Of a DNA stretch of 64,000 nt, positions 11,613 to 60,998 are shown piece after piece. This DNA is from a bacterium (GTDB taxonomy: Bacteria; Patescibacteriota; Minisyncoccia; Phycocordibacterales; Phycocordibacteraceae). The stretch is taken from NCBI GenBank assembly GCA_021849125.1, contig JAJZTG010000003.1:2133-66132 (forward strand). Direction: 5' to 3'. The position numbers and the translations under genes were made by a program. Numbering within the stretch: position 1 is the first letter of the stretch; every line of letters starts with the position of its first letter. The notes under the pieces are model-generated. The model was not told the origin of the DNA and searched no databases. It saw nothing but the letters and a program-made list of their open reading frames with translations.

Positions 11613-11615
11613 TCC

Positions 11616-27155: not shown

Positions 27156-27320
27156 AAATTTTTCTGAAAATTTTTTCGTGAGTTATCCACACATATTTAT
27201 TTTTTGATACATAAAAAGTTTTTTTACGCGCAATAATATTGTGTAGAACATTTGTGTATGAAAATATTTCACGCGCAGATGGGTCGACATATAAACCAAC
27301 ACTTCTAATTCACCACCACC

Positions 27321-27464
27321 ATGGCAACGAAGAAGCGCAAGGCAGTCAAGAAGACCGCAAAGAAGGCAGTCAAGAAGGCAGCCAAGAAGGCCGTCAAGAA
27401 GACCGCAAAGAAGGCAGTCAAGAAGGTTGCGAAGAAGCGCAAGGCAGCAAAGAAGCGCGCATAA
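27321..27464 (+). CDS. lysine-rich histone H1-like small basic protein (47 aa)
   Basis: MATKKRKAVKKTAKKAVKKAAKKAVKKTAKKAVKKVAKKRKAAKKRA. Absent from the ORF track because it is under 60 aa. Flanked by an AT-rich promoter region and a canonical terminator. Confidence 0.6.
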   Translation: MATKKRKAVKKTAKKAVKKAAKKAVKKTAKKAVKKVAKKRKAAKKRA

Positions 27465-27472
27465 GCTTCAAA

Positions 27473-27506
27473 AGAAAAATCCCGCTTCGGCGGGATTTTT
27501 CTTTTT
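27473..27506 (+). terminator. rho-independent terminator
   Basis: AAAAATCCCGC-TTCG-GCGGGATTTTTCTTTTT. Confidence 0.9.
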
Positions 27507-27522
27507 AGGCGGAGAAAGCTTT

Positions 27523-31080: not shown

Positions 31081-32499
31081 ATGGAATATCGTCCGACTAT
31101 AGGGCTCGAGATCCACGCGGAACTCAAGACCAAGACCAAGATGTTCTGCGACTCTGCGAACGATCCGGACGAGACTCGGCCGAACGTGAACGTCTGCCCG
31201 GTGTGCATGGCGCACCCTGGTACGCTTCCGGTCATAAACCGTGAGGCAGTCCGTCACATGCTCCGTATCGGTACGGCGGTCGGCGGGAAGATTGCCGACT
31301 TCAGCGAGTTCGACCGCAAGAGCTATTTCTATCCGGATATTCCGAAGGGATATCAGATCTCGCAATATGAATACCCGCTCATCTCGGGCGGTGAGCTGGC
31401 GGGCGTCGCGATCACACGCGTGCATCTCGAGGAAGACACGGCACGTTCATCGCATGAAGGCGGGAAGAGCCTCGTCGACTTCAACCGTGCGGGCATACCG
31501 CTCATGGAGCTCGTCACCGAGCCGGTGATCCACGACGCCGAGACGGCCGGACGTTTTGCACGCGAGTTGCAACTCCTCTTGCGTACGCTCGGTGCCGGCG
31601 AAGCGAATCTCGAGAAAGGTGAGATGCGCATCGAGGCGAATATCTCCGTTTCGAATGAAGAGGGTGTCTATGGGACGAAGGTCGAAGTGAAGAACCTGAA
31701 CTCGTTCCGTTCGGTCGAACGCGCGATCGCGTTCGAGATCGATCGTCAGGTCGAGCTCATCAAGTCCGGAGGGAAGGTGGTGCAAGAGACGCGCGGGTGG
31801 GATGAAGGGAAGCAAGTGACCTTCCATCAGCGCTTCAAGGAGGGAAGCGCCGACTATCGTTATTTCCCGGAACCCGACCTCCCGAAACTCACGCTTTCCG
31901 AGATACCGGAGTTCTCGACAGAAGCGATCCGTGCGACGCTCCCCGAGCTCCCGTGGGATCGCCGCGCACGGTACGCAGAGTCGTGGGGACTCAAAGAAGC
32001 CGATATCGCTTACCTCTCTGATCCGGACCGAGCCTCGTTTTTCGATACGGTGATCTCAGCACTCGGCAGCGACATCAAGCTCATCACGCTCGCTGTAAAC
32101 TACATCGTGTCCGATCTCGCGGGCATCTTCGCGAAGAACGGTAGCGAAGACTATGCGTCGATCGATCCCTCAGCATTCGCAAAGCTCATCACGCTCGTCG
32201 GGAACGGCGACCTCTCTTCACGCGGTGCGAAGGATACGCTCGCACTCTTCGTTGAGAAGGGTGGCGATCCAGAGACGCTTGCGAAGGAGGCAGGCCTTAT
32301 CCAAGTCCACGACACGGCAGCTCTCAAAGAGGCGGTGAACCAGGTCGTTACAGAAGAGGCTAAGGCAGTCGAGGAGTATCGGGCTGGCAAGGAGGCTGCG
32401 CTCCAGTATCTCCTCGGGAAGAGCATGAAGGCTACCCGTGGAGCAGGGAACCCGGCGGTCCTGAAGGAGCTCCTTATCGAGGCTCTCTCGGGTATCTAA
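31081..32499 (+). CDS. gatB: Asp-tRNA(Asn)/Glu-tRNA(Gln) amidotransferase subunit B
   Basis: IGLEIHAEL, CPVCMAHPGTLPV and the C-terminal GatB/YqeY domain. 472 aa. Confidence 0.9.
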   Translation: MEYRPTIGLEIHAELKTKTKMFCDSANDPDETRPNVNVCPVCMAHPGTLPVINREAVRHMLRIGTAVGGKIADFSEFDRKSYFYPDIPKGYQISQYEYPLISGGELAGVAITRVHLEEDTARSSHEGGKSLVDFNRAGIPLMELVTEPVIHDAETAGRFARELQLLLRTLGAGEANLEKGEMRIEANISVSNEEGVYGTKVEVKNLNSFRSVERAIAFEIDRQVELIKSGGKVVQETRGWDEGKQVTFHQRFKEGSADYRYFPEPDLPKLTLSEIPEFSTEAIRATLPELPWDRRARYAESWGLKEADIAYLSDPDRASFFDTVISALGSDIKLITLAVNYIVSDLAGIFAKNGSEDYASIDPSAFAKLITLVGNGDLSSRGAKDTLALFVEKGGDPETLAKEAGLIQVHDTAALKEAVNQVVTEEAKAVEEYRAGKEAALQYLLGKSMKATRGAGNPAVLKELLIEALSGI

Positions 32500-32554: not shown

Positions 32555-32609
32555 GATAGAAAAACGTGCGGTTATGCACATGACTCTTCTTTCCGAGCCG
32601 AGATAGCCT

Positions 32610-32615
32610 TATAAT
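32610..32615 (+). promoter_or_regulatory. -10 TATAAT 7 nt upstream of ATG (leaderless candidate)
   Basis: TATAATCAAAGGC-ATG, with no SD. Confidence 0.4.
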
Positions 32616-32622
32616 CAAAGGC

Positions 32623-33420
32623 ATGGATGAAATAATTATTGAAGAAAAGAAATACGTATCGTCTAAGCAAGCTGCAAAGATAACCGGCTATGCGAAAGAT
32701 TATGTAGGGCAACTATGCCGAGAAGGTCGTGTACCGGCTCGTCTCGTCGGGCGTAGTTGGTATGTGCTCGAGTCGGCTATCCAGGATCATCGTTTCGGAG
32801 CGCCTGAGCTATCGGAAGAAGCTTCTAATGAGCCGATTCCGGTCTCGGTAGAGACCCAGGTCATCTCGACTCGCTATGAAGCGGTGGAAACGCCTGTATT
32901 GCCTTCTATAAACCGCTTGCGTGAGGATGTTCCGAGTATGCAGGACCAGGGTGAAGATTCGGAGGATTCAAAATCGCAAGATCTCCGTGATGCCTGGAGC
33001 AATTGGTTTAATGAGCTTCCGGTAGAGGAAAAGTCTGAGGCTGCTACTGAAGCTCCTGAGCCGATAGCGCCAGCAGAAGAAACCTCTCAGGCTATGATGG
33101 AAGAGCTTGAGGAGCCTGCAGCGCCAGTTCCAGAGGAAGAGTCTACTCAAGAGTCTGTATCTATACACATTCTTGATCGTACGTATCGTCCTACACTTGA
33201 GACGCTTGCTCCTCAGCAAGAAGAGTACCCAGCAGCGCCTGTGCGGAAGGATACACAGAAGGGTGCCCCTACTATAAGCCGCGCCGTCCGTGCTTCAGCG
33301 GTCATCATAGCGGTGATTACCGTAGTGCTTGCGGCATTCGGTACAGGTTACTTCGATACATATCTAACCTCGAATAGCCAAGCAGCATACTTAGGAGGAA
33401 TATCTATTTACAATAAATAG
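32623..33420 (+). CDS. membrane-anchored protein with N-terminal excisionase-type HTH (HTH_17) domain, acidic linker and C-terminal TM helix
   Basis: SSKQAAKITGYAKDYVGQLCREGRVPARLVGRSWYVLESAIQDHR matches the HTH_17 pattern. An E/P-rich linker follows. TM helix AVIIAVITVVLAAFGTGYF near the C-terminus. Confidence 0.6.
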   Translation: MDEIIIEEKKYVSSKQAAKITGYAKDYVGQLCREGRVPARLVGRSWYVLESAIQDHRFGAPELSEEASNEPIPVSVETQVISTRYEAVETPVLPSINRLREDVPSMQDQGEDSEDSKSQDLRDAWSNWFNELPVEEKSEAATEAPEPIAPAEETSQAMMEELEEPAAPVPEEESTQESVSIHILDRTYRPTLETLAPQQEEYPAAPVRKDTQKGAPTISRAVRASAVIIAVITVVLAAFGTGYFDTYLTSNSQAAYLGGISIYNK

Positions 33421-33433
33421 CTTATATACTTGT

Positions 33434-33470
33434 AATCTCGCCTCGTGATAACGAGGCGAGATTTTTGTGC
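33434..33470 (+). terminator. rho-independent terminator
   Basis: AATCTCGCCTCG-TGATAA-CGAGGCGAGATTTTTGTG. Confidence 0.85.
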
Positions 33471-34046
33471 CACCAAGATACCATTGGATTTCTCTTGCGG
33501 AGGAAACAGGTACGCAAGAAGTATAAGGTTATCAGTTACGACATCAGGATGGTTGCTTGCTGACGTTTAAAACCACAGATGATCGCCTGCGCGATACACC
33601 AACCTGTAAAAAATAGCCTGTTTACGCAAATAAGAAGATATTCATATATATACATATATATAGCTATATACGGGGACATCTCTCTTTTTTACTAAAATCA
33701 GCCGAACTATCTATAAGATACATAGTTTGTTCGTTTAAACGGAGTATCAATCTCTAGATGAAGAGCCTTTTGGGGCATTTTGGTGTTATTTTGGCCGAAC
33801 TTTCGTTGACGAGAGCTTTCGGAAACGTTCGTGAGGCTCCATAAGACCGTTTGAAGTTGCTTTTTAAGCAGTTCGCGATGCGCATAGTGTCGATCAACGA
33901 ATCTTTCCGAGATATCTGGTCGCTTGTACGAGTGCGCTTCAAGAAAGATTTTTTAGAACCGATACGGTGCATCGATATTATCCACATTAATATGGTTCTT
34001 AATGTCGAAATCCTAAGTTATTATTTAGTTAATTCGGATATCCGAC
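33471..34046. other. AT-rich (~40% GC) intergenic island upstream of giant gene
   Basis: Composition is strongly atypical for this window. Contains an (AT)n/TATATA tract at about 33640..33670. The only ORFs are short and look spurious. Confidence 0.5.
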
Positions 34047-37000
34047 ATGAACTCTCCATTACAAAATCTCGTAACGACAAAAGAGGCAAGTGAGTCGTCG
34101 GGGTACACGTCGGACTATCTTGCGCGACTTGTCCGTTCTGGAGAAATCGAAGGAAGAAAGATCGGCCACAACTGGTTCGTCGATCGGGTGTCGCTCGAAG
34201 AGTTTCGCGACAAGCAGCGGAGTCGAAAGCTTGACCGTGCCCGTGAGCTGAGCGATACGCGCTCGCGTGAATATCACGGGAATCTTCAGGATGCGGGAGC
34301 GCCCGCACGGACCGTCCCTAAGGAGCTCATCCGGAAGACCGCGCTTCCTGCGGCAGAGGTGAGTCTTGCGCCGGTTTCGTTCGCTTCGCACCTGGTCGCT
34401 TTTACCGCAGCGCTTGCGATCGTGGGTGGCGGTGCGTTTGTCGCGCAAGCGAGCGTGGGCATACAAGCTGCAGGCCGCGTCGTTGCATTCGCGCAAGAAG
34501 CCGCAGATGGTTTCAAGATTGCTTTCGGTGATGCACCAGCACAGGTCGCCGCTCGTTTCGCGAATGTTGATACGATGATGCGCACGAGTGCCGATCGTGT
34601 CGCGATGAATGCTGCTTCGGCAGAAGCGGCGTATGCATCGCTACCGCTTGCACAGGTCACGCCGGCGACCATGCGCTCTTTCCTCGTGAAAGGATACGAG
34701 ACTCGTCAACGTGCGGTGTTCGCACAAGTGCCGTCATACAAGACTTCAACGTACGATCCGATCGATTGGGCTACGTTCGGACATGACACATACGCGTTCG
34801 TCACATCGCCGTCACGTATCCATGACGTGCTCAGTAACGCTTATCTCTCGGTAGGCATGAGCGCGTATCGCGGTATCGAGTCCGCGTTTTCCGCCTACGA
34901 AGCGTTCGTGAACCATGCGGGACAAGAGATGCTCGTGCTCGGCACCGCAACACGCGACGCGCTCGTTGCGTCGCCAAGCAAGGTCTCTCGAGCGGCAGTC
35001 GCGCTCGGCGAAGCTGTGCAAGATCTCACGCATGCGGCCATCCGTGCCGATGTTGCGCTCGCGTACGGCACCGCGGAAGCGGCGCCGGCAAGCGCGCGCG
35101 CGGTCGTGGCATTCCTCGGCTCTACGGGAAGTACGCTTGCGAATACGACGGAGCAGATCCCGCATGCGATCGCGGATGGATATCTCGCGGCTGCCGCATG
35201 GCCAGCTACCGCAGGGCCGCAACTCGCGTCGAGCGTATTCGGGCTTGAGTATCAGGCGGCACACCGCTTCGTCACGTTTACGGACGATCTATCGAGCCGA
35301 TACCTTGCCGTAGTCGAGGGCGCCGGAGCGTTTGCGTATGGTGCGACCGAGCATGCGAAATCGGCGGGCAGCCTGCTCGCCGTCGTTCCTGAGTGGCTCA
35401 CTTCAGACTCGCTCGCGCGTACGCATATTCCGCAGGCAGTCGCTGCAGTCGTAGCGGCGGTACCGGATCTCTCGGCGGGTCAACAAGCGGCACTCACGGT
35501 GTACCAGACCGTGAGCGGATTCCTCGGGGCAGCAAAGCATTTCATCGCATCGCTTATCCCGGCACCTCAGAACGTCGCGGTGCAGACGCCGGCACCGGCG
35601 GTCGCGACGACCACCGAGCGTATCATCACTGTTCCGCAGAACGTGACGACCTATCCGACCTACACCACTGTCGTGCGCGGCGCATCGCAAGAGTACGTCG
35701 CGCAGTCGATCTCATCGCTTCGAGCGGAAGTGCTCGCGACGGTCGCGAACATGATTGCTCCGATCGCGCATCAGACCGCGACCAACATCACGACGATCCA
35801 GCAGGTAAACCGCATCCAGGACCTCTCCGATCTCATCGTGCGCAACGGCGACTTCCGCGGCGGTACGTTCGACAACGGCAGGATCACGAACGGCATCTCC
35901 GTATCGGCAAACACGGGAACCTTCACGACGCTTTCGGGAGGGTCGACCTCGCTTGCAACAACGACTATCACTGGCAATCTTACGCTTAACGGTAATCAGA
36001 CGATATCTGGCTCACTCACGATCGGAACGACGACCATCACCGGACCACTTTCCACTTCGGGGACTATTACGGGCACCTACTTTGTCGCCACGAGCACGAC
36101 CGCTACTTCGACCCTTGCCGGTTCGCTTAACATCGATAGTGGGGGCTTCGTATATGCGACGTCGACACGCAACGTCGGCATCGGGGTGCTCTCGCCAGCC
36201 GCGCTTCTTGCTATACAGAACAGTACGTCGACGCAGCCGATCTTTACGGTCAAGAATGCGGCAGGTACCGAGGTATATCGCATCACGGACTCAGGATTCG
36301 TCGGCATCGGCTCCACGAGCCCTACCTACAATCTCGCGGTCGAAGGTACTTCTTCGCTCGGCAACAACGCGATTGCGGGTTACTTCACGGCCACGTCGAC
36401 GACCGCGACTTCGACCTTTGCAGGAGCGCTTGCGGTAGGCACGACTTCTCCCGTCGCAGGTGCGCTCTTCACTGTAGGCACTTCGACGCCACTGCTCCAC
36501 ATCTCAAGCAATACGGGCTACATCGGCATCGGTACGTCCTCTCCCGCGGTCGCTCTCGATCTCTACGCGACGACCGCGATGCGCATCCCGGTCGGTACGA
36601 CCGCCCAGCGTCCTTCTGGCGACGTCGGGTACATCCGCTACAACACCACCACGCATCAGTTCGAGGGTTACGGTGACAATTCCGTCTGGCAAGGGCTTGG
36701 CGGCGTCATCAATGCTGCGCAGACGACCTACATCACGGCCGGTACCGACGACTTCCTTCGTTTCGTTACCTCAAGCGTCGAACGCATGACCATCACCGCC
36801 GCAGGCCTAGTCGGCATCGGCTCCACAAGCCCGACGTACAACTTCTCGGTCGAAGGCACCTCTTCGCTCGGCAACAACGCGATTGCGGGTTACTTCACGG
36901 CCACGTCGACGACCGCGTCGCAGTTCCCCTACGCTTCCACCACGGCGCTTTCCGCCTACAACTCTCTCTTTGCCGGAAGCACGGCTACCTCAACCATCGC

Positions 37001-40000
37001 GGGTGACTACAATGCCTCAAGCATCCGCGGCGCGCTCACGGTCTACGGCAATACGACTTCCGGCTCAGCCAGCTCGCTTACGCTCCAGAGGGGAAGTACG
37101 AACGGTGACAACACGCTCGCCTTCAATGATCAGACCGGCTCGCCGCTCTTGAAGCTCTATACGAGCGCCAATACCGGCTACAGCTACCTCACTGGTTACC
37201 AGAGCTATCTTTCTCTCGGCACGAGTCTCGGTGGGCAGGTGTTGCGTATCGACACCTCGGGGAACATCACCACTACCGCGAACGTCATCCCATCGGCAAA
37301 CCAGACCTACAATCTCGGCTCACCGGCTGTTTACTGGAACAATGCGTACATAAACAACATCGTCGCGAACAACCTCTCCTCAGCCTCGACCTCGATCGCC
37401 GGCACGAACACGAGTTCTTTCAGCATCTATTCGAACAATCCGACCACTGACACTCAGGACATCTCGCTCATCTTCTATCGCGGCGCAGGCGCGTCTTCAA
37501 ACGGCGTCCTCGCATGGAACTCGACCTTGAAGCGTTTCGATCTCAATCAGAACCTTCACATCGTGAATGACTCGACCGCACCCGCTTCGACGACCCTCGT
37601 AGTCCAGGGCGTGTCGGGGCAGACGGGGCCGCTCACAAGCTGGCTCAACTCAGCTGGCGAATATCTCGCCACGCTCACCTCCAGTGGCTCCTTCGGCATC
37701 GGCACATCCTCGCCCTATGCGAGCCTCTCTATCGCAGGCTCGGCGGGAGGCACCTCAAGCCTCTTCGCCATCTCGACCTCGACCGCTGGATACGCGACCA
37801 CCACCGCGCTTTCGGTAGACCGAAACGGCAACCTATCGCTCCTAAACGGCGCGAGCCTTACGGTCTCCGGTACGACCAGTTTCTCTGGCTCATTTAGTCC
37901 GAATGTCGGCAGCAATGTTCTTCTCTCGACCAATGCCTCTGGCAACATCGTCGCGACTTCCTCACCGACGGCGGATTACTTCACCGCGACCAGCACAACC
38001 GCCTCGCAATTTCCCTATGCATCGACCACGGCGATTACAGCAAGCGGTACCGGATACTTCGGTTCTTTGGGCGGTGCAGCCTTCTCCTCGCTTACCACAA
38101 ACTACCTGCCGAAGTGGGGAAATGGTACGTTCTCGAATTCGCTCATCTTTGACAACGGCACCAACGTCGGCATCGGGACGACGAGCCCCTCCGCACTTCT
38201 TTCTATCCAAAACAACGTCTCTACCTCTTCGCCCGTTGTCTCGCTCTTTGATTCAACTGGTGCAACGTCGCTCGAGTTGCGTGCTTCGACCTCGACGCTC
38301 AACAATACCTTCATCGGAGTGAATGCTGGCGCCGTGAACACCACCGGTTCTGCTAATACTGTAATCGGGTACGGATCTTTTCCGGTGAATACCACGGGTT
38401 ATTCGAACGTCGCTGTCGGTTTTAATACGCTCTTTTCAAACACGACCGGATATTCGAATACCGCTCTTGGCATTAATGCGCTCTACACGAACACGTCCGG
38501 GTATGAGAACGTATCTGTCGGTCGTGCTTCTCTCTATTCAAATACAACCGGCACTTGGAACAGCGCCACAGGCTATCGAGCCCTCTACTCAAACACCACA
38601 GGGGTATCAAATACCGCAAATGGTTGGGGTGCTCTCAATAAAACCACGACGGGTTCCTATAACAGCGCCATTGGCGATTCCTCACTGTACTTCAATACGA
38701 CGGGCGCTAGTAACGTCGCTGTGGGCGCAGGCTCGCTCTACTACAATAACGCCGCCACTTCTTCCGTCGCAATCGGTCGTCAAGCCGGTCGCGGTACCGC
38801 CGCCTACGCGAACCAAGGCGGCGTGTACGTGGGCTACCGGTCAGGCTACAGCGCCGCCACCGGTTCAGATTTCAATACGTTTGTAGGCTACACAGCTGGC
38901 TACAACACCACCACAGGCACCTACAACATAGCGAATGGTGCCTATGCTCTCTATTCAAATACAACCGGCAACTTTAACAGTGCTCTTGGTGTGAGTGTCC
39001 TTTATGCCAACACCACCGGCTCGTACAACGTTGCAGACGGTTTTAACACACTTCGTTACAACACCACCGGCTCGTACAACGTTGCAGACGGTACAAACGC
39101 ACTCTTCTCGAACACTACTGGTGCCAACAACGTCGCTGAAGGAGCGAGTGCCCTTTACTACAACGCCTCCGCGACTTCTTCTGTCGCAGTAGGCTACGCC
39201 GCCGCTTCAGGCGCTGCCGCCTACGCGAACCAAGGCGGCGTGTACGTGGGCTACCAGTCAGGCTACAGCGCCGCCACGGGTTCAGATTTCAATACGTTTG
39301 TAGGCTACACAGCCGGATACAATACCACCACAGGCACCTACAACATAGCGAATGGTGCCTATGCTCTCTATTCAAATACAACCGGCAACTTTAACAGTGC
39401 TCTTGGTGTGAGTGTCCTTTATGCCAACACCACCGGCTCGTACAACGTTGCAGACGGTTTTAACACACTTCGTTACAACACCACCGGCTCGTACAACGTT
39501 GCAGACGGTACAAACGCACTCTTCTCGAACACTACTGGTGCCAACAACGTCGCTGAAGGAGCGAGTGCCCTTTACTACAACGCCTCCGCGACTTCTTCTG
39601 TCGCAGTAGGCTACGCCGCCGCTTCAGGCGCTGCCGCCTACGCGAACCAAGGTGGCACCTACCTCGGCTACCAGTCTGGCTATTCCGCAGCCACCGGTTC
39701 CGACTACAACACCCTTGTTGGCTACCAATCCGGCTATGGTATCACCACGGGCTCCAACAACATTTGGATCGGTGCTGCCACTTCTTCAACCGCCATTGCC
39801 AATCTCACTACCGGTTCGCAGAACATCCTTATCGGTAACAACATCTCTCTTCCCAGCGCCACCGCTTCAGGTCAGTTGAACATCGGCAACATCATCTTCG
39901 GTACGGGTATCACTGGAACCGGCTCAACCGTTTCAACGGGAAACATCGGGGTGGGGACGGCGGGGCCGGGGGCGAAGTTGCATATATACGACGGAGGTAC

Positions 40001-43000
40001 TGGAACATCCGACAGCGACCTCTTACGCCTTCAAACCACTTATGGCACCAATTCGGCGAAGAAATCCATCAGTTGGTATGACACGACAAATGTTACGGGA
40101 CAAATTGATACCCGATATGATGGAACCACCGTAGATATGGTTTTTGGCAGCTTGTATAACACCACCGATTTATATAATTCTACGGCCAGAATGGTGATTA
40201 AAGGAAACGGCAACGTCGGCATCGGGACGACCGCGCCCTCCGCGCCACTCACGATTCAAAACAACGTTGCGACCTCCTCGCCGATTCTCTCATTCCTTGA
40301 CTCGACCGGCGCGACCTCACTCGAGATCCGCGCGTCCACCTCGACGCTCCTCAACACCTTTATAGGTACGAGTGCGGGTGCGGCAAACACCACTGGCTAC
40401 TACAATACTGCTACCGGTTATGGTGCCCTCTACTCAAACACCACTGGTTACCAAAACGTCGCAAATGGTATCGCCGCTCTCTACGCAAACACGAGCGGCT
40501 ACCGTAACGTTGCCACCGGTGGGAACGCGCTTCGCTACAACACTACCGGTAATAACAACGTCGCAAGTGGCGACGCGGCGCTCTTCTCCAACATCACCGG
40601 TACTTCAAACGTCGCGCTCGGCAGCACCGCGCTCTACTACAACGCCTCCGCAACTTCGACGGTGGCAGTCGGTTTCAATGCCGCCGCCGGCACCGCCGCG
40701 TACTCCAACCAAGGCGGCGTGTACGTGGGTTACCAAGCCGGCTACAGCGCCCAGACCGGTTCCGACTACAACACGCTCGTTGGTTATAGTGCCGGCCACG
40801 ATGTAACGACCGGTACCGCAGAAGTGGCCCTTGGGGCAAATGCACTTCTTCACACCACTACCGGCAATCACAACGTTGCGATTGGTATTAGCGCTTTGCA
40901 ATCAAACACCACCGGGGGTGCGAATGTCGCGATCGGCAGCTCAGCTTTACAAAATGACGTATCAAGTGGCGGTAGTACCGCTGTCGGGTATCAAACGCTC
41001 AGTGCAAACACTACGGGTGCCAACAACGTCGGTCTCGGTTACTATGCACTCGTCAATAACAAGACGGGTTCCAACAACGTCGCATTGGGTGGGAATTCCC
41101 TCCAGTCGAACATCACCGGCTCTGAGAACACTGCTGTCGGTTTGGGGGCGCTTTACTACAACGCTTCCGCCACTTCTTCGGTCGCAATCGGGCGTGCTGC
41201 CGCCCAAGGCACAGCCGCCTACTCCAACCAAGGTGGTGTGTACGTGGGCTACCTGGCTGGCTACAGCGCCCAGACGGGTTCCGACTACAACACATTCGTG
41301 GGCTACACGGCAGGTTACAACACCACTACCGGCTATTGGAACGTTGGAAATGGTTATGAATCCCTGTACTCAAACACCACTGGTGATCAGAACATTGCCC
41401 TCGGTCCAAAAGCGCTCCGCTCCAACACCACAGGAAGGTTTAATTTCGCAGGAGGTGCGTACGCGCTTTATTCAAATACCACCGGTACTTCAAACGTCGC
41501 GATCGGCAATCAGGTCGCTTACTTCAACTCGTCCGCCACATCGACCGTCGCTATTGGCTATTACGCAGCTCAAGGCACCGCCGCATACTCAAACCAAGGT
41601 GGTGTGTACGTGGGCTACCTGGCTGGCTACAGCGCCCAGACCGGCTCGGACTACAACACGTTCGTGGGCTACCAGTCTGGCTATTCAGACACCGTTGGTT
41701 TTTACAATACAGCTTCTGGGTACACAGCGCTCTACTCAAACGCTGGGGGTTCTTATAATAATGCCTACGGTAGCGCTGCGCTCCAGAACACGACAGGATC
41801 TCAGAATACGGCAATTGGATCGGGCGCAGGTAGCGGCATCACAAGCGGTTCCAACAACATTGCTATCGGCTATAACGCCCAGGTGCCGACACCGACCGCT
41901 TCGAACCAGATTCGCCTCGGCGATGCGAATATCACTTACGCGGGTATCCAGGTGTCGTGGACGGTGACATCCGATCGCAAGTACAAGACCGACATCAAGC
42001 CGGTTGCTTTCGGCCTCGACTTCGTGAATCAGCTTCAGCCAGTCGACTACTTGCGCGTGAATGATGCAAGCGGCGGCAGGGAAGCCGGCTTCGTGGCGCA
42101 GGACGTGAATCAGACGCTCCTCTCTGCCACCTCGACCGCCTATGGGCTCATAAGCTACGACCCGACGGCCGCTGCTTACTCGCTCCGCTACAACGACTTC
42201 ATCCCGATCCTCACCCGCGCAGTGCAGCAGCTTGATACGAAGGTAAACCTTATCGCGAGCTCGACCGCGTCGACGACGCAGATCTTCGTCGACACCACGG
42301 GTAACGTCGGCATCGGCACCACCAGTCCGAATCATACTTTGACGATCGCGGGCGACGTGGGTGCGATCGCCTTCGTGAACACTTCGACGCGCACGGCAAA
42401 GACCGACATCAGCTATGTCGGCGAGTCGGCAAGCGACGAGATGTATGACCAGCTTCTCAAGATCAAGGTCGCGAACTACCGCTACAAGATCGAGCCCACG
42501 AGCGATCCGCTCCGCCTCGGCTTCATCGCGGAAGAGGTGCAGCAAGTAGCTCCTGAGATCCTCTCGCCCGATGGTAAGGGCGTCGACCTCTACAAGCTCG
42601 CGACCTTCACGCTCTCGGGCGTGCAGACCTTGGCCGGGAAGGTCGACGCGCAGGGCGTGCGGCTCGCCTCGCTTGAGGACCGCGTCGCCAAGCTCGAGAG
42701 CGGGGACGTCTCGGTGGCAAGCGGCTCGCCGGTGAGCTTCTCCTCAGCATCGCTTGCAAGCGCGCTTAGCGGGTTCGGCGTGCTTATCGACAAGGGCATC
42801 GCGCAGTTCAATACGCTCGTCTTCCGCACGCTCGTGGCAAGCTCGGATGCCGATGGGACCAGTAGCGCGGGCAGCGTGACGATCCTCACCGGCAATACCG
42901 TCGCCCAGGTGAATAATGCGCTCGTGAAGCCTTCGACCAAGATCTTCGTCACCTTCAACGCGCAGCTTACGGGCAGCTGGTGGGTGAGCGACAAAGCCGA

Positions 43001-43754
43001 CGGCTCCTTCCGCGTGGTGCTCTCCGACCCTCAGACGGGCGACGTCTCCTTCGACTACTTCCTCGTCCAGACGGAAGGCCAGATCGCGACCCCGACGGCA
43101 AGCGGCTATCAAGGCATCTCGCAATCGAGCGGGCCGGATACGGTCGCGCCGGTGATCACGCTCCTCGGCGATAACCCGGTGTACCTCTCGGTCGGTGGTA
43201 CTTTCACGGAGCCGGGGGTCACCGTGACCGATAACGCCGACGGCACGGATCCGTACAAGACCTACGTGAACGGTATCGAGCAGGCGGCGGACGCAGGGAC
43301 CATCGATACCTCGAGTCCGACGACTTACATCATCACCTACACCGCACGAGACGCGGCAGGAAATACGACCAGCGCGCACCGCTCGGTAATCGTCGGCAAT
43401 CCGGACGGTACGGTCTCGGCTGACAGCGGAAGTCCGACTTCCACAGACACGACCGCACCGGTCGTGACCCTGAACGGCTCTGCGGCGATGGAACTTGTCC
43501 AGAGCGGTACCTTCACCGACCCGGGCGCGACCGCCACTGACGATACCGATGGCGACCTCACTGCAAAGGTCGTGGAGACGGGCAGCGTGGATACTGCGAC
43601 GACAGGCCTCTACACGCTCACGTACTCGGCTACCGACGCGGCGGGGAACACGGGCAGCGTCTCGCGCGTCGTTTCGGTCGTCGCGCCGGCGGCGGCCACG
43701 ACGACCGAGACGACGGCCACTGGCGGCACGGCCTCCTCCACCCCGGCACAATAA
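34047..43754 (+). CDS. giant (3235 aa) membrane-anchored fibre/adhesin: N-terminal HTH_17 + TM, phage-tail-fibre-like NTTG 17-residue repeats, two Peptidase_S74 intramolecular-chaperone domains, two DUF5011 Ig-like domains
   Basis: One uninterrupted ORF. N-terminal TTKEASESSGYTSDYLARLVRSGEIEGRKIGHNWFVDRVSLEEFR (HTH_17). TM helix LVAFTAALAIVGGGAFVAQ at aa ~108-128. Repeats of xxNxAxGxxALYSNTTG. S74 motif TSDRKYKTDIKP...GFVAQDV (~41.9-42.25 kb). Second S74 STRTAKTDI...VANYRYK...LGFIAEEVQQVAPEI (~42.3-42.7 kb). DUF5011 motifs DTVAPVITLLGDNP and DTTAPVVTLNGSAAMEL...TDDTDGDLTAKV. Confidence 0.85.
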   Translation: MNSPLQNLVTTKEASESSGYTSDYLARLVRSGEIEGRKIGHNWFVDRVSLEEFRDKQRSRKLDRARELSDTRSREYHGNLQDAGAPARTVPKELIRKTALPAAEVSLAPVSFASHLVAFTAALAIVGGGAFVAQASVGIQAAGRVVAFAQEAADGFKIAFGDAPAQVAARFANVDTMMRTSADRVAMNAASAEAAYASLPLAQVTPATMRSFLVKGYETRQRAVFAQVPSYKTSTYDPIDWATFGHDTYAFVTSPSRIHDVLSNAYLSVGMSAYRGIESAFSAYEAFVNHAGQEMLVLGTATRDALVASPSKVSRAAVALGEAVQDLTHAAIRADVALAYGTAEAAPASARAVVAFLGSTGSTLANTTEQIPHAIADGYLAAAAWPATAGPQLASSVFGLEYQAAHRFVTFTDDLSSRYLAVVEGAGAFAYGATEHAKSAGSLLAVVPEWLTSDSLARTHIPQAVAAVVAAVPDLSAGQQAALTVYQTVSGFLGAAKHFIASLIPAPQNVAVQTPAPAVATTTERIITVPQNVTTYPTYTTVVRGASQEYVAQSISSLRAEVLATVANMIAPIAHQTATNITTIQQVNRIQDLSDLIVRNGDFRGGTFDNGRITNGISVSANTGTFTTLSGGSTSLATTTITGNLTLNGNQTISGSLTIGTTTITGPLSTSGTITGTYFVATSTTATSTLAGSLNIDSGGFVYATSTRNVGIGVLSPAALLAIQNSTSTQPIFTVKNAAGTEVYRITDSGFVGIGSTSPTYNLAVEGTSSLGNNAIAGYFTATSTTATSTFAGALAVGTTSPVAGALFTVGTSTPLLHISSNTGYIGIGTSSPAVALDLYATTAMRIPVGTTAQRPSGDVGYIRYNTTTHQFEGYGDNSVWQGLGGVINAAQTTYITAGTDDFLRFVTSSVERMTITAAGLVGIGSTSPTYNFSVEGTSSLGNNAIAGYFTATSTTASQFPYASTTALSAYNSLFAGSTATSTIAGDYNASSIRGALTVYGNTTSGSASSLTLQRGSTNGDNTLAFNDQTGSPLLKLYTSANTGYSYLTGYQSYLSLGTSLGGQVLRIDTSGNITTTANVIPSANQTYNLGSPAVYWNNAYINNIVANNLSSASTSIAGTNTSSFSIYSNNPTTDTQDISLIFYRGAGASSNGVLAWNSTLKRFDLNQNLHIVNDSTAPASTTLVVQGVSGQTGPLTSWLNSAGEYLATLTSSGSFGIGTSSPYASLSIAGSAGGTSSLFAISTSTAGYATTTALSVDRNGNLSLLNGASLTVSGTTSFSGSFSPNVGSNVLLSTNASGNIVATSSPTADYFTATSTTASQFPYASTTAITASGTGYFGSLGGAAFSSLTTNYLPKWGNGTFSNSLIFDNGTNVGIGTTSPSALLSIQNNVSTSSPVVSLFDSTGATSLELRASTSTLNNTFIGVNAGAVNTTGSANTVIGYGSFPVNTTGYSNVAVGFNTLFSNTTGYSNTALGINALYTNTSGYENVSVGRASLYSNTTGTWNSATGYRALYSNTTGVSNTANGWGALNKTTTGSYNSAIGDSSLYFNTTGASNVAVGAGSLYYNNAATSSVAIGRQAGRGTAAYANQGGVYVGYRSGYSAATGSDFNTFVGYTAGYNTTTGTYNIANGAYALYSNTTGNFNSALGVSVLYANTTGSYNVADGFNTLRYNTTGSYNVADGTNALFSNTTGANNVAEGASALYYNASATSSVAVGYAAASGAAAYANQGGVYVGYQSGYSAATGSDFNTFVGYTAGYNTTTGTYNIANGAYALYSNTTGNFNSALGVSVLYANTTGSYNVADGFNTLRYNTTGSYNVADGTNALFSNTTGANNVAEGASALYYNASATSSVAVGYAAASGAAAYANQGGTYLGYQSGYSAATGSDYNTLVGYQSGYGITTGSNNIWIGAATSSTAIANLTTGSQNILIGNNISLPSATASGQLNIGNIIFGTGITGTGSTVSTGNIGVGTAGPGAKLHIYDGGTGTSDSDLLRLQTTYGTNSAKKSISWYDTTNVTGQIDTRYDGTTVDMVFGSLYNTTDLYNSTARMVIKGNGNVGIGTTAPSAPLTIQNNVATSSPILSFLDSTGATSLEIRASTSTLLNTFIGTSAGAANTTGYYNTATGYGALYSNTTGYQNVANGIAALYANTSGYRNVATGGNALRYNTTGNNNVASGDAALFSNITGTSNVALGSTALYYNASATSTVAVGFNAAAGTAAYSNQGGVYVGYQAGYSAQTGSDYNTLVGYSAGHDVTTGTAEVALGANALLHTTTGNHNVAIGISALQSNTTGGANVAIGSSALQNDVSSGGSTAVGYQTLSANTTGANNVGLGYYALVNNKTGSNNVALGGNSLQSNITGSENTAVGLGALYYNASATSSVAIGRAAAQGTAAYSNQGGVYVGYLAGYSAQTGSDYNTFVGYTAGYNTTTGYWNVGNGYESLYSNTTGDQNIALGPKALRSNTTGRFNFAGGAYALYSNTTGTSNVAIGNQVAYFNSSATSTVAIGYYAAQGTAAYSNQGGVYVGYLAGYSAQTGSDYNTFVGYQSGYSDTVGFYNTASGYTALYSNAGGSYNNAYGSAALQNTTGSQNTAIGSGAGSGITSGSNNIAIGYNAQVPTPTASNQIRLGDANITYAGIQVSWTVTSDRKYKTDIKPVAFGLDFVNQLQPVDYLRVNDASGGREAGFVAQDVNQTLLSATSTAYGLISYDPTAAAYSLRYNDFIPILTRAVQQLDTKVNLIASSTASTTQIFVDTTGNVGIGTTSPNHTLTIAGDVGAIAFVNTSTRTAKTDISYVGESASDEMYDQLLKIKVANYRYKIEPTSDPLRLGFIAEEVQQVAPEILSPDGKGVDLYKLATFTLSGVQTLAGKVDAQGVRLASLEDRVAKLESGDVSVASGSPVSFSSASLASALSGFGVLIDKGIAQFNTLVFRTLVASSDADGTSSAGSVTILTGNTVAQVNNALVKPSTKIFVTFNAQLTGSWWVSDKADGSFRVVLSDPQTGDVSFDYFLVQTEGQIATPTASGYQGISQSSGPDTVAPVITLLGDNPVYLSVGGTFTEPGVTVTDNADGTDPYKTYVNGIEQAADAGTIDTSSPTTYIITYTARDAAGNTTSAHRSVIVGNPDGTVSADSGSPTSTDTTAPVVTLNGSAAMELVQSGTFTDPGATATDDTDGDLTAKVVETGSVDTATTGLYTLTYSATDAAGNTGSVSRVVSVVAPAAATTTETTATGGTASSTPAQ
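38811..39644 (+). repeat. near-identical 417-bp tandem duplication (2 copies, ~98.8% identity) inside the giant gene
   Basis: Units 38811..39227 and 39228..39644 differ at 5 positions. One of these is a CGG/CAG Arg/Gln change. A diverged third copy begins at 39645. Each unit encodes 139 aa ending ...AAYANQGGVYVGYQSGYSAATGSDFNTFVGY. Confidence 0.9.
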
Positions 43755-43883: not shown

Positions 43884-44417
43884 ATGCGGAAAAAAGAAAA
43901 CAATTACGCTTTCATAGACAGCCAGAACTTGAACCTAGGTATACAGAGGCTCGGCTGGGGTCTTGACTACAAAAGATTCAGAGTGTACCTAGCTGAGAAA
44001 TACGGCGTTACGCGAGCGTATATGTTCATCGGCTTCGTGGCGCTAAATCAATCACTCTACGACAATTTGCAAGAAGCAGGGTTCATCTTGAAGTTCAAGC
44101 CTACGATTCCCGATATGGAGGGGAAAATTAAAGGGAACATAGATGCTGATCTTGTCTTGCGTGCCGTCCTTGAGATTGGCGAGTATGATACCGCTGTCAT
44201 TGTCACGAGTGATGGCGATTTCTATTCGCTCGTTCAGCATCTCTACGAAAATGGGAAATTGAAAGCCGTCCTGAGTCCGGATATACATATGGCTTCAAGC
44301 TTATTGAAACAAACCGCAAAAGAGAGAATCCATTTTATGAATGATTTGCGGGGTTTGCTGGGGTACAAAAGAAAAGCACCGCGAGGGGACGGAACCCGAC
44401 GCAGTGCCTTTCCCTAG
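43884..44417 (+). CDS. NYN-domain (LabA/DUF88-like) protein, putative RNase
   Basis: YAFIDSQNLNLGI ... RAYMFIGFV ... VIVTSDGDFYSLVQHL is the NYN/PIN-like acidic-residue pattern. Confidence 0.65.
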   Translation: MRKKENNYAFIDSQNLNLGIQRLGWGLDYKRFRVYLAEKYGVTRAYMFIGFVALNQSLYDNLQEAGFILKFKPTIPDMEGKIKGNIDADLVLRAVLEIGEYDTAVIVTSDGDFYSLVQHLYENGKLKAVLSPDIHMASSLLKQTAKERIHFMNDLRGLLGYKRKAPRGDGTRRSAFP

Positions 44418-44454
44418 AAATACCTAATCATGCTAGCAAACACCGAAAGGAAGT

Positions 44455-44600: not shown

Positions 44601-44618
44601 AGGGCGGCACGTACCAAA

Positions 44619-54663: not shown

Positions 54664-54736
54664 CGCTTTCCGGTGTCGGATTATCCCCATACGCGCGACC
54701 AAAGGTTGCGCGTAAGAGGGGTATACTGAACTCATT

Positions 54737-55492: not shown

Positions 55493-55510
55493 CCGCTCTC
55501 ATCTAAGCGT

Positions 55511-60975: not shown

Positions 60976-60998
60976 GTTTCCACAAGACAGGGAAGAGA

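What the first reader, a model, noticed from the sequence alone, without database searches (positions are those of the whole stretch)
32623..34400. Two adjacent proteins share an N-terminal excisionase-type HTH followed by a TM helix
The 265-aa protein at 32623 and the giant fibre at 34047 both open with a clearly homologous ~45-aa HTH_17-like segment: SSKQAAKITGYAKDYVGQLCREGRVPARLVGRSWYVLESAIQDHR versus TTKEASESSGYTSDYLARLVRSGEIEGRKIGHNWFVDRVSLEEFR. Each then has a linker and one TM helix. A cytoplasmic DNA-binding-type domain tethered to an extracellular fibre is an unusual architecture. Two readings seem possible. It may be a ToxR-like membrane-bound regulator paired with a self-regulating or anchoring module. 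Alternatively this small domain has been repurposed as a membrane-targeting or assembly module. The small protein could be a truncated paralog or a dedicated partner.
Basis: seen in the sequence. Interest (0 to 1): 0.7.

Follow-up and report, generated by a model that had tools for sequence, protein, structure and literature searches.

The report
Membrane-tethered DNA-binding domains on a surface fibre
Two neighbouring genes of an ultra-small (CPR) bacterium, a small membrane protein and a 3,235-residue surface fibre built like a phage tail fibre, both begin with the same type of DNA-binding domain on the inner side of the membrane, a widely conserved but undescribed arrangement that may link the cell's attachment fibre to its DNA.

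Summary
ORF-A (32623-33420) and giant ORF-B (34047-43754) both start with a Pfam HTH_17 domain (27.9 bits each). The family profiles match at E=1.6e-11. Each protein has one transmembrane (TM) helix with the N-terminus inside.

The pair is syntenic (secA-obg-gatB-A-B) in about 70 of 80 Paceibacteria/Kaiserbacteria genomes. ORF-B-type N-termini define more than 500 protein clusters, with one to three HTHs.

ORF-A is not a truncated paralog. It is a separate tail-anchored family with a near-invariant HTH, an acidic linker carrying short conserved motifs, and a conserved 22-residue outer tail.

The HTH is a winged helix closest to the DNA-binding repressor TraN and to excisionases. Positions that contact DNA in TraN are conserved, so DNA binding at the membrane is the likeliest function.

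Strongly conserved non-coding elements precede every HTH-TM gene. One is a perfect DnaA-box sequence, TTATCCACA. The other is specific to ORF-B-type genes. These are candidate operators, but DnaA is an equally good or better candidate for the box.

ORF-B's TM ends in a conserved AxA, so signal-peptidase cleavage cannot be excluded.

What the domains bind is not established. This is a new variant of membrane-tethered HTH proteins.

The parts
32572..32580 (+). Upstream box of the ORF-A promoter. It reads TTATGCACA in the window and mostly TGTGCAC(A) in relatives. It lies 27-29 nt upstream of the -10 hexamer.
   Evidence: The position is conserved in 82 aligned ORF-A upstream regions.
32610..32615 (+). 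-10-like hexamer of ORF-A: TATAAT here, TATACT in most relatives. It ends 7 nt before the ATG, so the mRNA is probably leaderless.
   Evidence: Sequence. Conserved block AGCCGAGATAnGGCTATACT plus 5-8 nt plus ATG.
32623..33420 (+). ORF-A, 265 aa, a tail-anchored bitopic membrane protein. More than 1,500 homologues, all Paceibacteria-type.
32653..32787 (+). ORF-A winged HTH (aa 11-55). Residues 1-59 are almost invariant across the family.
   Evidence: Pfam HTH_17, 27.9 bits. Invariant columns.
32800..33285 (+). ORF-A acidic, mostly disordered cytoplasmic linker (aa 60-221; 37 D/E against 11 K/R in aa 60-215; family median net charge -19). It carries short conserved motifs: PRYE, LPSxNR, LQDSWxAWFDR (predicted helix 114-131), VPIH and LLP.
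33286..33351 (+). ORF-A transmembrane helix (about aa 222-243).
   Evidence: Kyte-Doolittle 2.42. AF2 helix 216-240 at pLDDT about 95. Positive-inside 4.2 vs 0.6.
33352..33417 (+). ORF-A conserved 22-residue extracytoplasmic tail (SGYFDxYIxSNSQ...G...YNK).
33434..33468 (+). Intrinsic terminator of ORF-A: a 13-bp hairpin followed by a U-run. It makes ORF-A and ORF-B separate transcription units.
   Evidence: Free energy -24.1 kcal/mol, z = -6.9. Sequence.
33978..33986 (+). TTATCCACA box (identical to the DnaA-box consensus), 61 nt upstream of the ORF-B ATG. It sits at a fixed position in 69 of 71 orthologous spacers.
34003..34046 (+). Conserved block that abuts the ORF-B start codon. Consensus: TGCCGAAATAnTAAGTTATTATTTAGTTAATTCGGnTATCCGAC. 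It includes a -10-like TATTAT at 34019-34024. The sub-motif TAGTTAATTCGG and its neighbours occur almost only upstream of ORF-B-type genes.
   Evidence: 32 of 33 and 41 of 44 occurrences; no conserved RNA structure.
34047..43754 (+). ORF-B, 3,235 aa, a giant surface fibre with a single N-terminal membrane anchor.
34068..34292 (+). ORF-B cytoplasmic winged HTH (aa 8-58): beta strand, two helices, a beta-hairpin wing, then a long basic helix running to aa 82.
   Evidence: AF2 pLDDT 96-98. Foldseek TraN, Xis, RacA, BldC. PDB profile hit to TraN at E=1.9e-5. Conserved R27, R30, G40 and H/R41.
34380..34451 (+). ORF-B transmembrane or signal-anchor helix (aa 112-135). It ends in GGGAFVAQA, so a possible signal-peptidase I site lies at A135|S136.
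34452..34571 (+). Conserved juxtamembrane ectodomain segment of ORF-B (IPQLA...A.E...GF..TFG.IPSRIA.RI in relatives).
41970..42116 (+). Peptidase_S74 intramolecular-chaperone domain 1 (aa 2642-2690). It begins with SDRKYK.
   Evidence: 43.8 bits against a cut-off of 22. Similar to phage tail-fibre proteins.
42387..42557 (+). Peptidase_S74 domain 2 (aa 2781-2837).
   Evidence: 33.3 bits.
43155..43394 (+). Bact_surface_Ig-like domain 1 (aa 3037-3116).
   Evidence: 56 bits.
43467..43679 (+). Bact_surface_Ig-like domain 2 (aa 3141-3211).
   Evidence: 81 bits.

Best explanation
This is a conserved two-gene module of Kaiserbacteria-type Paceibacteria (CPR). Both products hold a TraN/excisionase/MerR-class winged HTH at the cytoplasmic face of the membrane.

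ORF-A is a tail-anchored protein. It has a near-invariant HTH, a roughly 160-residue acidic disordered linker with short docking motifs, a C-terminal TM and a conserved 22-residue outer tail.

ORF-B is a type II (N-in) anchored fibre. It has an HTH, a long basic helix, a linker and a TM. About 3,100 exported residues follow and end in phage-tail-fibre modules (two S74 intramolecular chaperones and two Ig-like domains). By analogy with phage fibres, the fibre would be trimeric and carry three HTHs at its base.

My committed mechanism is that the HTHs are working DNA-binding domains. ORF-A is the fibre's dedicated membrane-tethered partner. The two bind conserved operator-like DNA at the promoters of their own gene family, most plausibly the ORF-B-specific element at the start of ORF-B. 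Contact between ORF-A's TM and outer tail and the fibre's conserved juxtamembrane segment would couple fibre occupancy or state to expression of the 9.7-kb gene. This is ToxR-like in logic only, not in family membership.

Shown here: homology, fold class, topology signals, synteny, family size, and the conserved cis elements.
Inferred: DNA binding (about 0.6), autoregulation or feedback (about 0.35), the A-B contact, and trimer formation.
For: Homology and significance.
Topology.
Conserved pairing in about 70 of 80 species-level loci and in metagenome contigs.
Family size: 2,278 cluster representatives at E<=1e-3 and 500 at E<=1e-10 match the ORF-B N-terminus; among the best 150, the match spans HTH, TM and juxtamembrane segment, 136 have one TM after the HTH, and 28 have 2-3 tandem HTHs.
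Fold: a confident winged-HTH model, pLDDT 96-98. The best structural and sequence relatives are DNA binders: TraN at Foldseek probability 1.0, 30-33% identity and profile E=1.9e-5, then Xis, RacA and BldC.
DNA-contact positions: TraN contacts DNA through H82 and R86 on the recognition helix and through G100-K101 on the wing (PMC10877727, PMC6158623). TraN H82 aligns with ORF-B R27 (130 of 143 are R). The neighbouring K85 aligns with R30 (138 of 143). The wing pair aligns with G40 (138 of 143) and H/R/N/K41. R86 itself aligns with S31, which is not conserved as a basic residue. The HTH plus helix carries a net charge of +5.
Cis elements: TTATCCACA occurs 131 times in 1.22 Mb of loci against about 9 expected by chance. 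Sixty-one copies lie within 130 nt upstream of HTH-TM genes, including paralogous small and distal ones. The ORF-B-specific block occurs almost only there and has no conserved RNA fold.
ORF-A's HTH is near-invariant although the proteins are only about 45% identical overall, as expected for a domain locked to a conserved ligand.
The C-terminal modules match phage tail fibres.
Against: No binding partner is demonstrated. TTATCCACA is the canonical DnaA box. It also precedes a Lys-rich H1-like gene (27183) and, as TTATCCCCA, a secreted-protein cluster (54681). So DnaA or another global factor may own it. The excisionase model TIGR01764 is not met, and HTH_17 is only just met. D23, invariant at the start of the recognition helix, is unusual for a phosphate-contacting position. 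ORF-A has no sensor ectodomain. MerR-fold domains can bind proteins, for example CbpM. The conserved AxA at the end of ORF-B's TM could mean that the HTH is cut off the fibre. The ORF-A model is of low confidence, mean pLDDT 58.
Confidence: 0.5

Rival explanations
1. The HTH has been repurposed as a protein-binding adaptor, as in RodZ (HTH binds MreB) or CbpM. It would dock the fibre base and ORF-A to each other or to a conserved cytoplasmic partner such as the cytoskeleton, the Sec machinery or a division protein. ORF-A would be a scaffold whose linker motifs recruit further partners. No DNA would be involved.
For: ORF-A's near-invariant HTH and several short linear motifs in a disordered acidic linker resemble a hub or scaffold protein. 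CbpM, a MerR-fold protein binder, is among the fold matches. The invariant acidic D23 lies in the 'recognition' helix. The gene neighbourhood is rich in envelope and Sec genes: murB, secA, wzy.
Against: The closest relatives by sequence and by fold are all DNA binders. Basic residues at the recognition-helix positions aligned with TraN H82 and K85, and the wing Gly plus basic tip aligned with G100-K101, are conserved. The domain is net positive. It shows no similarity to the RodZ HTH (XRE type).
Confidence: 0.22
2. In ORF-B the HTH, linker and TM form an oversized, cleavable export leader. Signal peptidase I would cut after the conserved AxA (A135|S136). That would free the fibre and leave a 135-residue membrane-tethered HTH stub, which is either a by-product or a regulator produced once per exported fibre.
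For: The end of the TM has the layout of a signal-peptide h and c region (ALALSVALLVV-SGAxxA[QRH]A). Strict AxA is found in 86 of 136 family members, and most of the rest have small residues there. The predicted secreted proteins of the same window end their signal peptides in the same AxA style.
Against: The n-region is about 110 residues long and contains a folded domain, which is unknown for Sec signal peptides. The fibre has no other anchor: no LPXTG, SLH or LysM domain and no second hydrophobic segment. S-G-A-x-x-A also reads as a small-xxx-small helix-packing motif, suited to a trimeric TM bundle. No signal-peptide predictor was available.
Confidence: 0.15
3. The HTHs bind DNA, mainly as a physical tether. 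They would attach the nucleoid or a specific chromosomal site to the membrane and fibre base, as the MerR-fold RacA anchors the chromosome, with no regulatory role. The conserved TTATCCACA boxes would belong to DnaA.
For: RacA is among the fold matches. The box is the exact DnaA consensus and is shared with a nucleoid-protein gene. There would be three HTHs per trimeric fibre, and up to three tandem HTHs per chain in relatives.
Against: There is no evidence for a repeated chromosomal target. The ORF-B-specific conserved block next to the start codon is better explained by gene-specific control.
Confidence: 0.1
4. Annotation artefact: the fibre starts at an internal codon, or ORF-A is a decayed fragment of a fibre gene.
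For: None beyond the general uncertainty about start codons in MAGs.
Against: The HTH shows coding-type substitution. There is no in-frame Met before the TM, and the frame opens only 6 codons upstream. The non-coding conservation stops at the ATG. ORF-A is conserved over its full length in more than 1,500 homologues.
Confidence: 0.02

Closest known systems
TraN (ORF14, deposited as 'AM32') of Enterococcus plasmid pIP501; PDB 4P0Y, 4P0Z, 6G1T
   Same: It is the closest solved relative by sequence profile (E=1.9e-5) and by fold (probability 1.0, 30-33% identity). It is a winged HTH of the MerR/excisionase class. The recognition-helix position H82, the neighbouring K85 and the wing pair G100-K101 align with conserved R27, R30 and G40-H/R41. 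ORF-B relatives with two tandem HTHs mimic TraN's internal dimer.
   Different: TraN is a soluble 122-aa cytosolic repressor with two HTHs. The window proteins have one HTH each and are membrane-anchored. One of them is fused to a 3,100-residue ectodomain.
ToxR / CadC / TcpP membrane-bound one-component regulators
   Same: They are bitopic N-in proteins with a cytoplasmic DNA-binding domain, a linker, one TM, and often a co-encoded membrane partner (ToxS, TcpH). They couple events outside the cell to promoter binding at the membrane.
   Different: Their DNA-binding domain is OmpR-type (Trans_reg_C) and they have a periplasmic sensor domain. Here the HTH is Xis/MerR-type. ORF-A has only 22 outer residues, and ORF-B's 'ectodomain' is a giant structural fibre.
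RodZ
   Same: It has an N-terminal cytoplasmic HTH, a linker, a single TM and an outer domain. It shows that a membrane-tethered HTH can bind a protein (MreB) rather than DNA.
   Different: RodZ's HTH is XRE-type (HTH_25) and its outer domain is DUF4115. There is no sequence or family match here.
Phage tail fibres and tailspikes with a C-terminal intramolecular chaperone (Peptidase_S74)
   Same: ORF-B carries two S74 domains. It shares 30-37% identity with the C-terminal parts of phage tail-fibre proteins, and it has a repetitive beta-rich shaft and distal Ig-like domains.
   Different: Phage fibres attach to the virion through their N-terminus. Here that N-terminus is replaced by an HTH and TM anchor in a cellular chromosome. 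The region after the first S74 motif is about 590 residues long and conserved.
RacA (Bacillus subtilis) and excisionases (Xis of Tn916, Pukovnik; RdfS) / BldC
   Same: They share the small MerR-like winged-HTH fold (Foldseek TM 0.58-0.72 normalised to the target). RacA links DNA to a membrane-associated pole complex.
   Different: All are soluble. RacA reaches the membrane indirectly through DivIVA. There is no significant sequence similarity.

Membership tests
Pfam HTH_17 (PF12728) | Score at or above the gathering cut-off of 27 bits | tested here: met
   ORF-A scores 27.9 bits. ORF-B's first 200 aa score 27.9 bits. Full-length ORF-B scores only 22.5 bits. So this is a marginal pass.
Excisionase family DNA-binding domain (NCBIfam TIGR01764) | Score at or above the curated cut-off of 28.8 bits | tested here: not met
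   15.5 and 15.8 bits. The proteins should not be called excisionases.
MerR/Xis-class winged HTH fold | Beta strand, helix, turn, recognition helix, beta-hairpin wing and C-terminal helix | tested here: met
   ORF-B AF2 model: E8-10, H11-18, H22-31, E36-39, E42-46, H47-82, with pLDDT 96-98. Foldseek matches TraN, Xis, RacA, BldC and CarH.
TraN-like T4SS repressors | Two winged HTHs in one chain forming an internal dimer that binds dsDNA | tested here: not met
   The window proteins have one HTH each. Twenty-eight of 150 ORF-B relatives have 2-3. DNA binding is not testable with these tools.
ToxR/CadC-type membrane-bound regulators | OmpR-type winged HTH (Trans_reg_C) | tested here: not met
   No Trans_reg_C hit. 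The domain is HTH_17.
ToxR/CadC-type membrane-bound regulators | Bitopic N-in topology with a cytoplasmic DNA-binding domain | tested here: met
   One hydrophobic segment and a positive-inside bias. This is prediction only.
ToxR/CadC-type membrane-bound regulators | Extracytoplasmic sensor domain | tested here: not met
   ORF-A has a 22-residue outer tail. ORF-B's outer part is a structural fibre.
ToxR/CadC-type membrane-bound regulators | Binds and regulates target promoters while membrane-bound | not testable with these tools
   Only candidate operators were found.
RodZ | XRE-type HTH (HTH_25) plus TM plus DUF4115 | tested here: not met
   Neither family is hit in Pfam scans.
Tail-anchored membrane proteins (ORF-A) | Single TM within about 30-40 residues of the C-terminus, with the bulk of the protein cytoplasmic | tested here: met
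   TM at about 222-243 of 265. This holds across 120 homologues.
Cleavable Sec signal peptide (ORF-B residues 1-135) | Short basic n-region, 7-15-residue h-region, c-region with small residues at -3 and -1 | tested here: inconclusive
   The h and c regions and the AxA fit. The n-region is about 110 residues and contains a folded domain, which does not fit. No predictor was available.
Peptidase_S74 intramolecular-chaperone tail-fibre proteins | S74 domain above the cut-off of 22 bits | tested here: met
   43.8 and 33.3 bits. tblastn hits to phage tail fibres. Autoproteolysis at SDRKYK was not tested.

The most novel reading that the evidence does not exclude
The giant host-attachment fibre and its tail-anchored partner form an outside-in signalling or tethering device of a new type. 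Cytoplasmic TraN/Xis-type HTHs, three per trimeric fibre plus ORF-A's, would bind conserved operators of a small envelope and nucleoid regulon. That regulon comprises the fibre genes, their HTH-TM paralogues, an H1-like protein gene and a secreted-protein cluster. The state of the surface fibre (assembled, loaded, host-bound or cleaved at AxA) would then be read out directly at the DNA, without two-component systems, which these reduced genomes largely lack.
Probability: 0.2. Interest if true: 0.88.

Novelty: new variant of a known kind. Interest (0 to 1): 0.66.

Why it matters
CPR/Patescibacteria are thought to live attached to host cells, yet how their surface organelles are anchored and controlled is almost unknown. 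Here a lineage-wide module places a DNA-binding-type domain at the cytoplasmic root of the largest surface protein and on a co-conserved, near-invariant partner. There are more than 500 ORF-B-type clusters and more than 1,500 ORF-A homologues, always next to secA-obg-gatB.

If the domains bind DNA, this would be a direct physical or regulatory link between an attachment fibre and the chromosome. It would also be a new class of membrane-bound one-component regulator.

If they bind protein, the pair defines a new anchoring system for giant fibres in bacteria without sortase-type anchors.

Either way, the module supplies defined, testable parts: 60-85-residue domains and DNA elements of 9-40 bp. 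This is for organisms in which almost no regulator-operator pair is known.

Tried and rejected
1. The search for homologous proteins with ORF-B aa 1-200 found nothing, not even the protein itself. Repeating with a 24-sequence alignment found only 10 short fragments. The word index seems to miss the giant proteins. The exhaustive representative search solved this.
2. The idea that the AT-rich 600-bp A-B spacer is an origin of replication is rejected. There is only one DnaA-type box per spacer, at a fixed promoter-like position. The GC-skew change at 34-44 kb is the composition of the giant gene.
3. The idea that the conserved block before ORF-B is a structured RNA is rejected. Rfam finds nothing. 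RNAalifold on 64 orthologues predicts no pairs. The single-sequence fold is weak, z = -2.3.
4. 'Truncated paralog' and 'internal start' are rejected.
5. The ORF-A structure prediction has mean pLDDT 58. Only the TM and one helix are confident, so it was not used for fold search.
6. A single-sequence PDB search with the ORF-A HTH gave only a chance hit, ApaG at E=0.55.
7. NCBIfam gave only sub-threshold 'excise' hits and a faint MamR hit at E=0.17, which was ignored.
9. Literature searches for this architecture found no description. The terms covered HTH_17 plus TM plus CPR, giant CPR proteins, and Kaiserbacteria adhesins. The CPR pilus preprint and the giant-gene preprint do not mention it.
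10. The sigma-70 scan gave only one weak promoter-like site, which overlaps the box. It was not relied on.

Full report
**Context.** The window is a chromosomal stretch of a CPR bacterium of the Paceibacteria/Kaiserbacteria type. It contains murD-murI-murC, glycosyltransferases, murB, secA (27543-30059), obg, gatB (31081-32499) and gapdh. The identical ORF-A protein is on record from an NCBI/ENA contig, and its homologues carry Kaiserbacteria, Paceibacterota or Minisyncoccia names. ORF-A (32623-33420, 265 aa) follows gatB. A strong intrinsic terminator comes next (33434-33468; -24.1 kcal/mol, z = -6.9). Then comes a spacer of about 600 bp with low G+C, then ORF-B (34047-43754, 3,235 aa).

**Checking the observation.**
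- Both quoted peptides are present.
- Pfam HTH_17 is just met by both N-termini: 27.9 bits against a cut-off of 27.
- Pairwise BLASTP gives E=1e-9.
- In a six-frame search of the window, each domain finds only the other.
- Profiles of the two families align with 97.3% probability, E=1.6e-11.
- Each protein has exactly one hydrophobic segment: ORF-A at 222-243 and ORF-B at 112-135.
- Both families show a positive-inside bias (4.2 vs 0.6 and 1.8 vs 0.8 K+R), so the HTHs are predicted to be cytoplasmic.
- An internal start is excluded. The frame opens 6 codons before the ATG. There is no Met between the HTH and the TM. Third codon positions vary most in the HTH across 63 orthologues (entropy 0.84, 0.61, 1.54). 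A non-coding conserved block stops exactly at the ATG.

**ORF-A is its own family.** A database search returned 1,528 homologues. The best 120 are all 245-290 aa long, cover 100% of the query and are 40-47% identical. Alignments show these features:
- Residues 1-59 are almost invariant (MDEILIEEKKYVSSKQAAKxTGYAKDYIGQLCREGRVPARLVGRSWYVLESAIQDHRFG).
- The linker is acidic (family median net charge -19) and otherwise variable. It carries short conserved motifs: PRYE, LPSxNR, LQDSWxAWFDR, VPIH and LLP.
- A TM helix follows.
- The 22-residue C-terminal tail is conserved (SGYFDxYIxSNSQ...G...YNK).

AlphaFold gives confident helices only for the TM and the WxAWF motif and leaves the rest disordered. 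With its TM 22 residues from the C-terminus, ORF-A is a tail-anchored protein. It shares nothing with ORF-B beyond the HTH, so 'truncated paralog' is rejected.

**The pair is conserved.** Two metagenome contigs and 80 GTDB species-level loci were fetched using ORF-A. They show wzy-murB-secA-obg-gatB-ORF-A. In about 70 of the loci with enough downstream DNA, a giant ORF lies 400-700 bp further on, and its N-terminus matches ORF-B's HTH. In one case the called product is 1,839 aa with HTH_17, PTL_trimer and Bact_surface_Ig-like. A few loci instead carry an extra HTH-TM protein of about 240 aa and a more distal large HTH-TM gene.

**The ORF-B family.** An exhaustive HMMER search with ORF-B residues 1-200 found 2,278 cluster representatives at E<=1e-3 and 500 at E<=1e-10. 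In the best 150, the match covers the HTH, TM and juxtamembrane segment, and lengths reach 7,214 aa. Of those 150, 122 have one HTH, 27 have two and 1 has three. In 136 there is a single TM about 114 residues from the start.

The conserved layout, from the N-terminus, is as follows:
1. HTH: LITTKDAxELSGYTSDYLARLxRSGKIxGKRIGHSWLID..SL..F.
2. A basic helix: RKxDRARxLAxAR..EYR.
3. A variable linker.
4. TM: SHALALSVALLVVxSGAxxA[QRH]A.
5. A conserved juxtamembrane segment.

Downstream, the window protein has no other hydrophobic segment or wall anchor. It ends with two Peptidase_S74 intramolecular-chaperone domains and two Ig-like domains. This region is 30-37% identical to phage tail-fibre proteins. 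The N-terminal TM is therefore the only visible anchor of a fibre that, like a phage tail fibre, is presumably trimeric.

**What kind of HTH.**
- The ORF-B N-terminus is modelled with pLDDT 96-98 as a beta strand, two helices, a beta-hairpin wing and a long helix running to residue 82. A disordered linker and the TM follow.
- Foldseek ranks TraN of pIP501 first (probability 1.0, 30-33% identity), then Xis proteins, RacA, RdfS, BldC and CarH, and also CbpM.
- A profile of both families finds only TraN (deposited as 'AM32') in the PDB, at E=1.9e-5.
- TraN is a winged-helix repressor. Its recognition-helix residues H82 and R86 and its wing residues G100-K101 contact DNA (PMC6158623, PMC10877727).
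- In 143 ORF-B-family HTHs, H82 aligns with R27 (130 R), the neighbouring K85 with R30 (138 R), G100 with G40 (138 G), and K101 with H/R/N/K41. R86 aligns with S31, which is not basic. The domain plus helix is net +5. ORF-A has Q, R, G and R at the four conserved positions.
- The excisionase model TIGR01764 is not met. 'Excisionase-type' therefore describes the fold class, not the family.

**Conserved DNA around the genes.** The A-B spacer has a median length of 604 bp and 37% G+C, against 54% for the loci as a whole. Its last 75 nt or so are conserved at the nucleotide level across genomes whose proteins are only about 45% identical. The pattern is TTATCCACA, then 12-20 nt, then TAGG..TGCCGAAATAnTAAGTTATTATTTAGTTAATTCGGnTATCCGAC-ATG.

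TTATCCACA is the DnaA-box consensus. There is one box per spacer at a fixed position, so this is not an origin.

In 83 loci (1.22 Mb) the 9-mer occurs 131 times, against about 9 expected by chance:
- 61 copies lie within 130 nt upstream of HTH-TM genes of every type, including the small and distal paralogues.
- About 60 copies lie in the murB-secA spacer, upstream of a 47-aa Lys/Ala-rich H1-like gene (window box 27183; gene 27321-27464).
- At most 8 copies lie elsewhere.

ORF-A's own promoter carries a variant box (TGTGCACA; TTATGCACA in the window) 27-29 nt before a TATACT or TATAAT hexamer. That hexamer ends 5-8 nt before the ATG, so the mRNA is probably leaderless. The same box-27 nt-TATACT layout, with TTATCCCCA, precedes ORF 54737, which heads a cluster of secreted proteins. 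TTATCCCCA also replaces the box upstream of ORF-B in several relatives.

The block next to the ORF-B start codon is specific to ORF-B-type genes (32 of 33 and 41 of 44 occurrences). It has no conserved RNA structure and no Rfam match.

**Interpretation.** Firmly shown:
- The two proteins form a conserved partner pair.
- Both carry a cytoplasmic MerR/Xis/TraN-class winged HTH tethered by a single TM.
- One is fused to a phage-tail-fibre-like giant ectodomain.
- Their genes carry unusually conserved cis elements.

Inferred: the domains still bind DNA (about 0.6). This rests on the identity of all close relatives as DNA binders, on the conserved contact positions, and on the match between a near-invariant domain in ORF-A and near-invariant DNA elements.

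My committed model is a membrane-tethered partner pair working at the promoters of its own gene family. ORF-A's TM and outer tail would contact the fibre's conserved juxtamembrane segment to provide feedback (about 0.35).

The main caveat is that the shared box is exactly a DnaA box and also serves non-HTH genes, so DnaA may own it. The ORF-B-specific block is the better candidate operator for the HTHs.

Three alternatives remain open:
- The HTH is a protein-binding adaptor, as in RodZ or CbpM.
- The HTHs are a purely physical tether between nucleoid and membrane, as in RacA.
- Signal peptidase cuts at the conserved AxA at the end of ORF-B's TM, and the HTH-TM then acts as a giant leader. The same AxA style ends the signal peptides of the secreted proteins in this window. 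Against this, the n-region is 110 residues long and folded, and the fibre has no other anchor.

**Novelty.** No Pfam or NCBIfam model covers either family beyond the HTH. Source names are 'hypothetical' or 'helix-turn-helix domain-containing protein'. Targeted literature searches found no description. Bitopic HTH proteins are known (ToxR, CadC, RodZ). A Xis/TraN-type HTH at the root of a giant tail-fibre-like surface protein, paired with a tail-anchored HTH partner, is a new variant of that kind.

Noticed in passing
window 27183-27191, 32572-32580, 33978-33986, 54681-54689; loci L001-L084: A DnaA-box-like element marks a small set of promoters: all HTH-TM genes, a Lys-rich H1-like gene and a secreted-protein cluster. 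It reads TTATCCACA, with variants TTATCCCCA, TGTCCACA and TGTGCACA. The perfect 9-mer occurs 131 times in 1.22 Mb of related loci against about 9 expected by chance, almost all at two promoter classes. The regulator is unknown; DnaA or the invariant ORF-A HTH are candidates.
   Followed up: partly
window 27321-27464 (+): A 47-aa Lys/Ala-rich protein (MATKKRKAVKKTAKK...) resembling histone H1 or Hc1. It has its own conserved promoter and leader (27183-27320) and a terminator (about 27478-27505). It is conserved between murB and secA in the related loci. The mechanical ORF list shows a spurious overlapping 89-aa ORF (27239-27508) instead.
   Followed up: partly
window 32560-32625: The ORF-A promoter is conserved at the nucleotide level (TGTGCAC-AGCTCTTCCATACnAGCCGAGATAnGGCTATACT). 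The -10 hexamer ends 5-8 nt before the ATG, so the mRNA is probably leaderless.
   Followed up: partly
window 38841-39674 (inside ORF-B): An exact 139-aa (417-nt) tandem duplication (aa 1599-1731 and 1738-1870). It is absent from the database copy of the same protein (P0121, 3,109 aa). That copy also differs by a 13-aa indel in the Thr-rich linker near aa 3133. This is either repeat copy-number variation or assembly collapse.
   Followed up: partly
window 41970-41990 (ORF-B aa 2642-2647): The first S74 chaperone domain begins with SDRKYK, the usual autocleavage context of tail-fibre chaperones. If cleavage occurs, it would release the conserved C-terminal 590 residues or so, including both Ig-like domains. 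That would be unusual for this module, which normally sits at the very C-terminus.
   Followed up: no
window 43884-45338: A NYN-domain gene (43884-44417) and an IS200-like Y1 transposase gene (44649-45338, minus strand) lie between ORF-B and gapdh. In locus L001, gapdh follows the giant gene directly. This is probably an insertion.
   Followed up: partly
window 5207-7087 (+): A type IV secretion coupling-protein-like ATPase (T4SS-DNA_transf, TrwB_AAD_bind, TraG-D_C). It is notable only because the closest solved relative of the HTH, TraN, is a T4SS-associated DNA-binding protein. No link between them was shown.
   Followed up: no
window 53275-63162: A run of about nine paralogous-looking genes with N-terminal signal peptides ending in AxA. 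The run includes ORF 54737-55492, a TM protein with no Pfam hit that carries the TTATCCCCA box in its promoter.
   Followed up: no
loci L024, L028, L032, L046, L063 (two tandem HTHs); L029, L036, L039, L040 (extra HTH-TM protein of about 240 aa at about 11000-11760; distal large HTH-TM gene at about 18300): The HTH-TM module is modular. There are 1-3 HTH copies per chain, and the ectodomains range from about 100 to more than 7,000 residues. Each such gene is preceded by the same box. Intermediate N-termini (for example MDELVIDGKTFVSSKRASETSGYAQDYIGQLARGG) bridge the ORF-A and ORF-B HTH types.
   Followed up: partly
window 33469-33950: Most of the 600-bp A-B spacer is AT-rich and of conserved length (median 604 bp), but its sequence is not conserved. 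It includes a TATATATACATATATATAGCTATATAC stretch at about 33646-33672. Why so long a spacer is kept is unexplained. The 80-aa ORF at 33851-34093 overlaps the conserved promoter block and is probably spurious.
   Followed up: no
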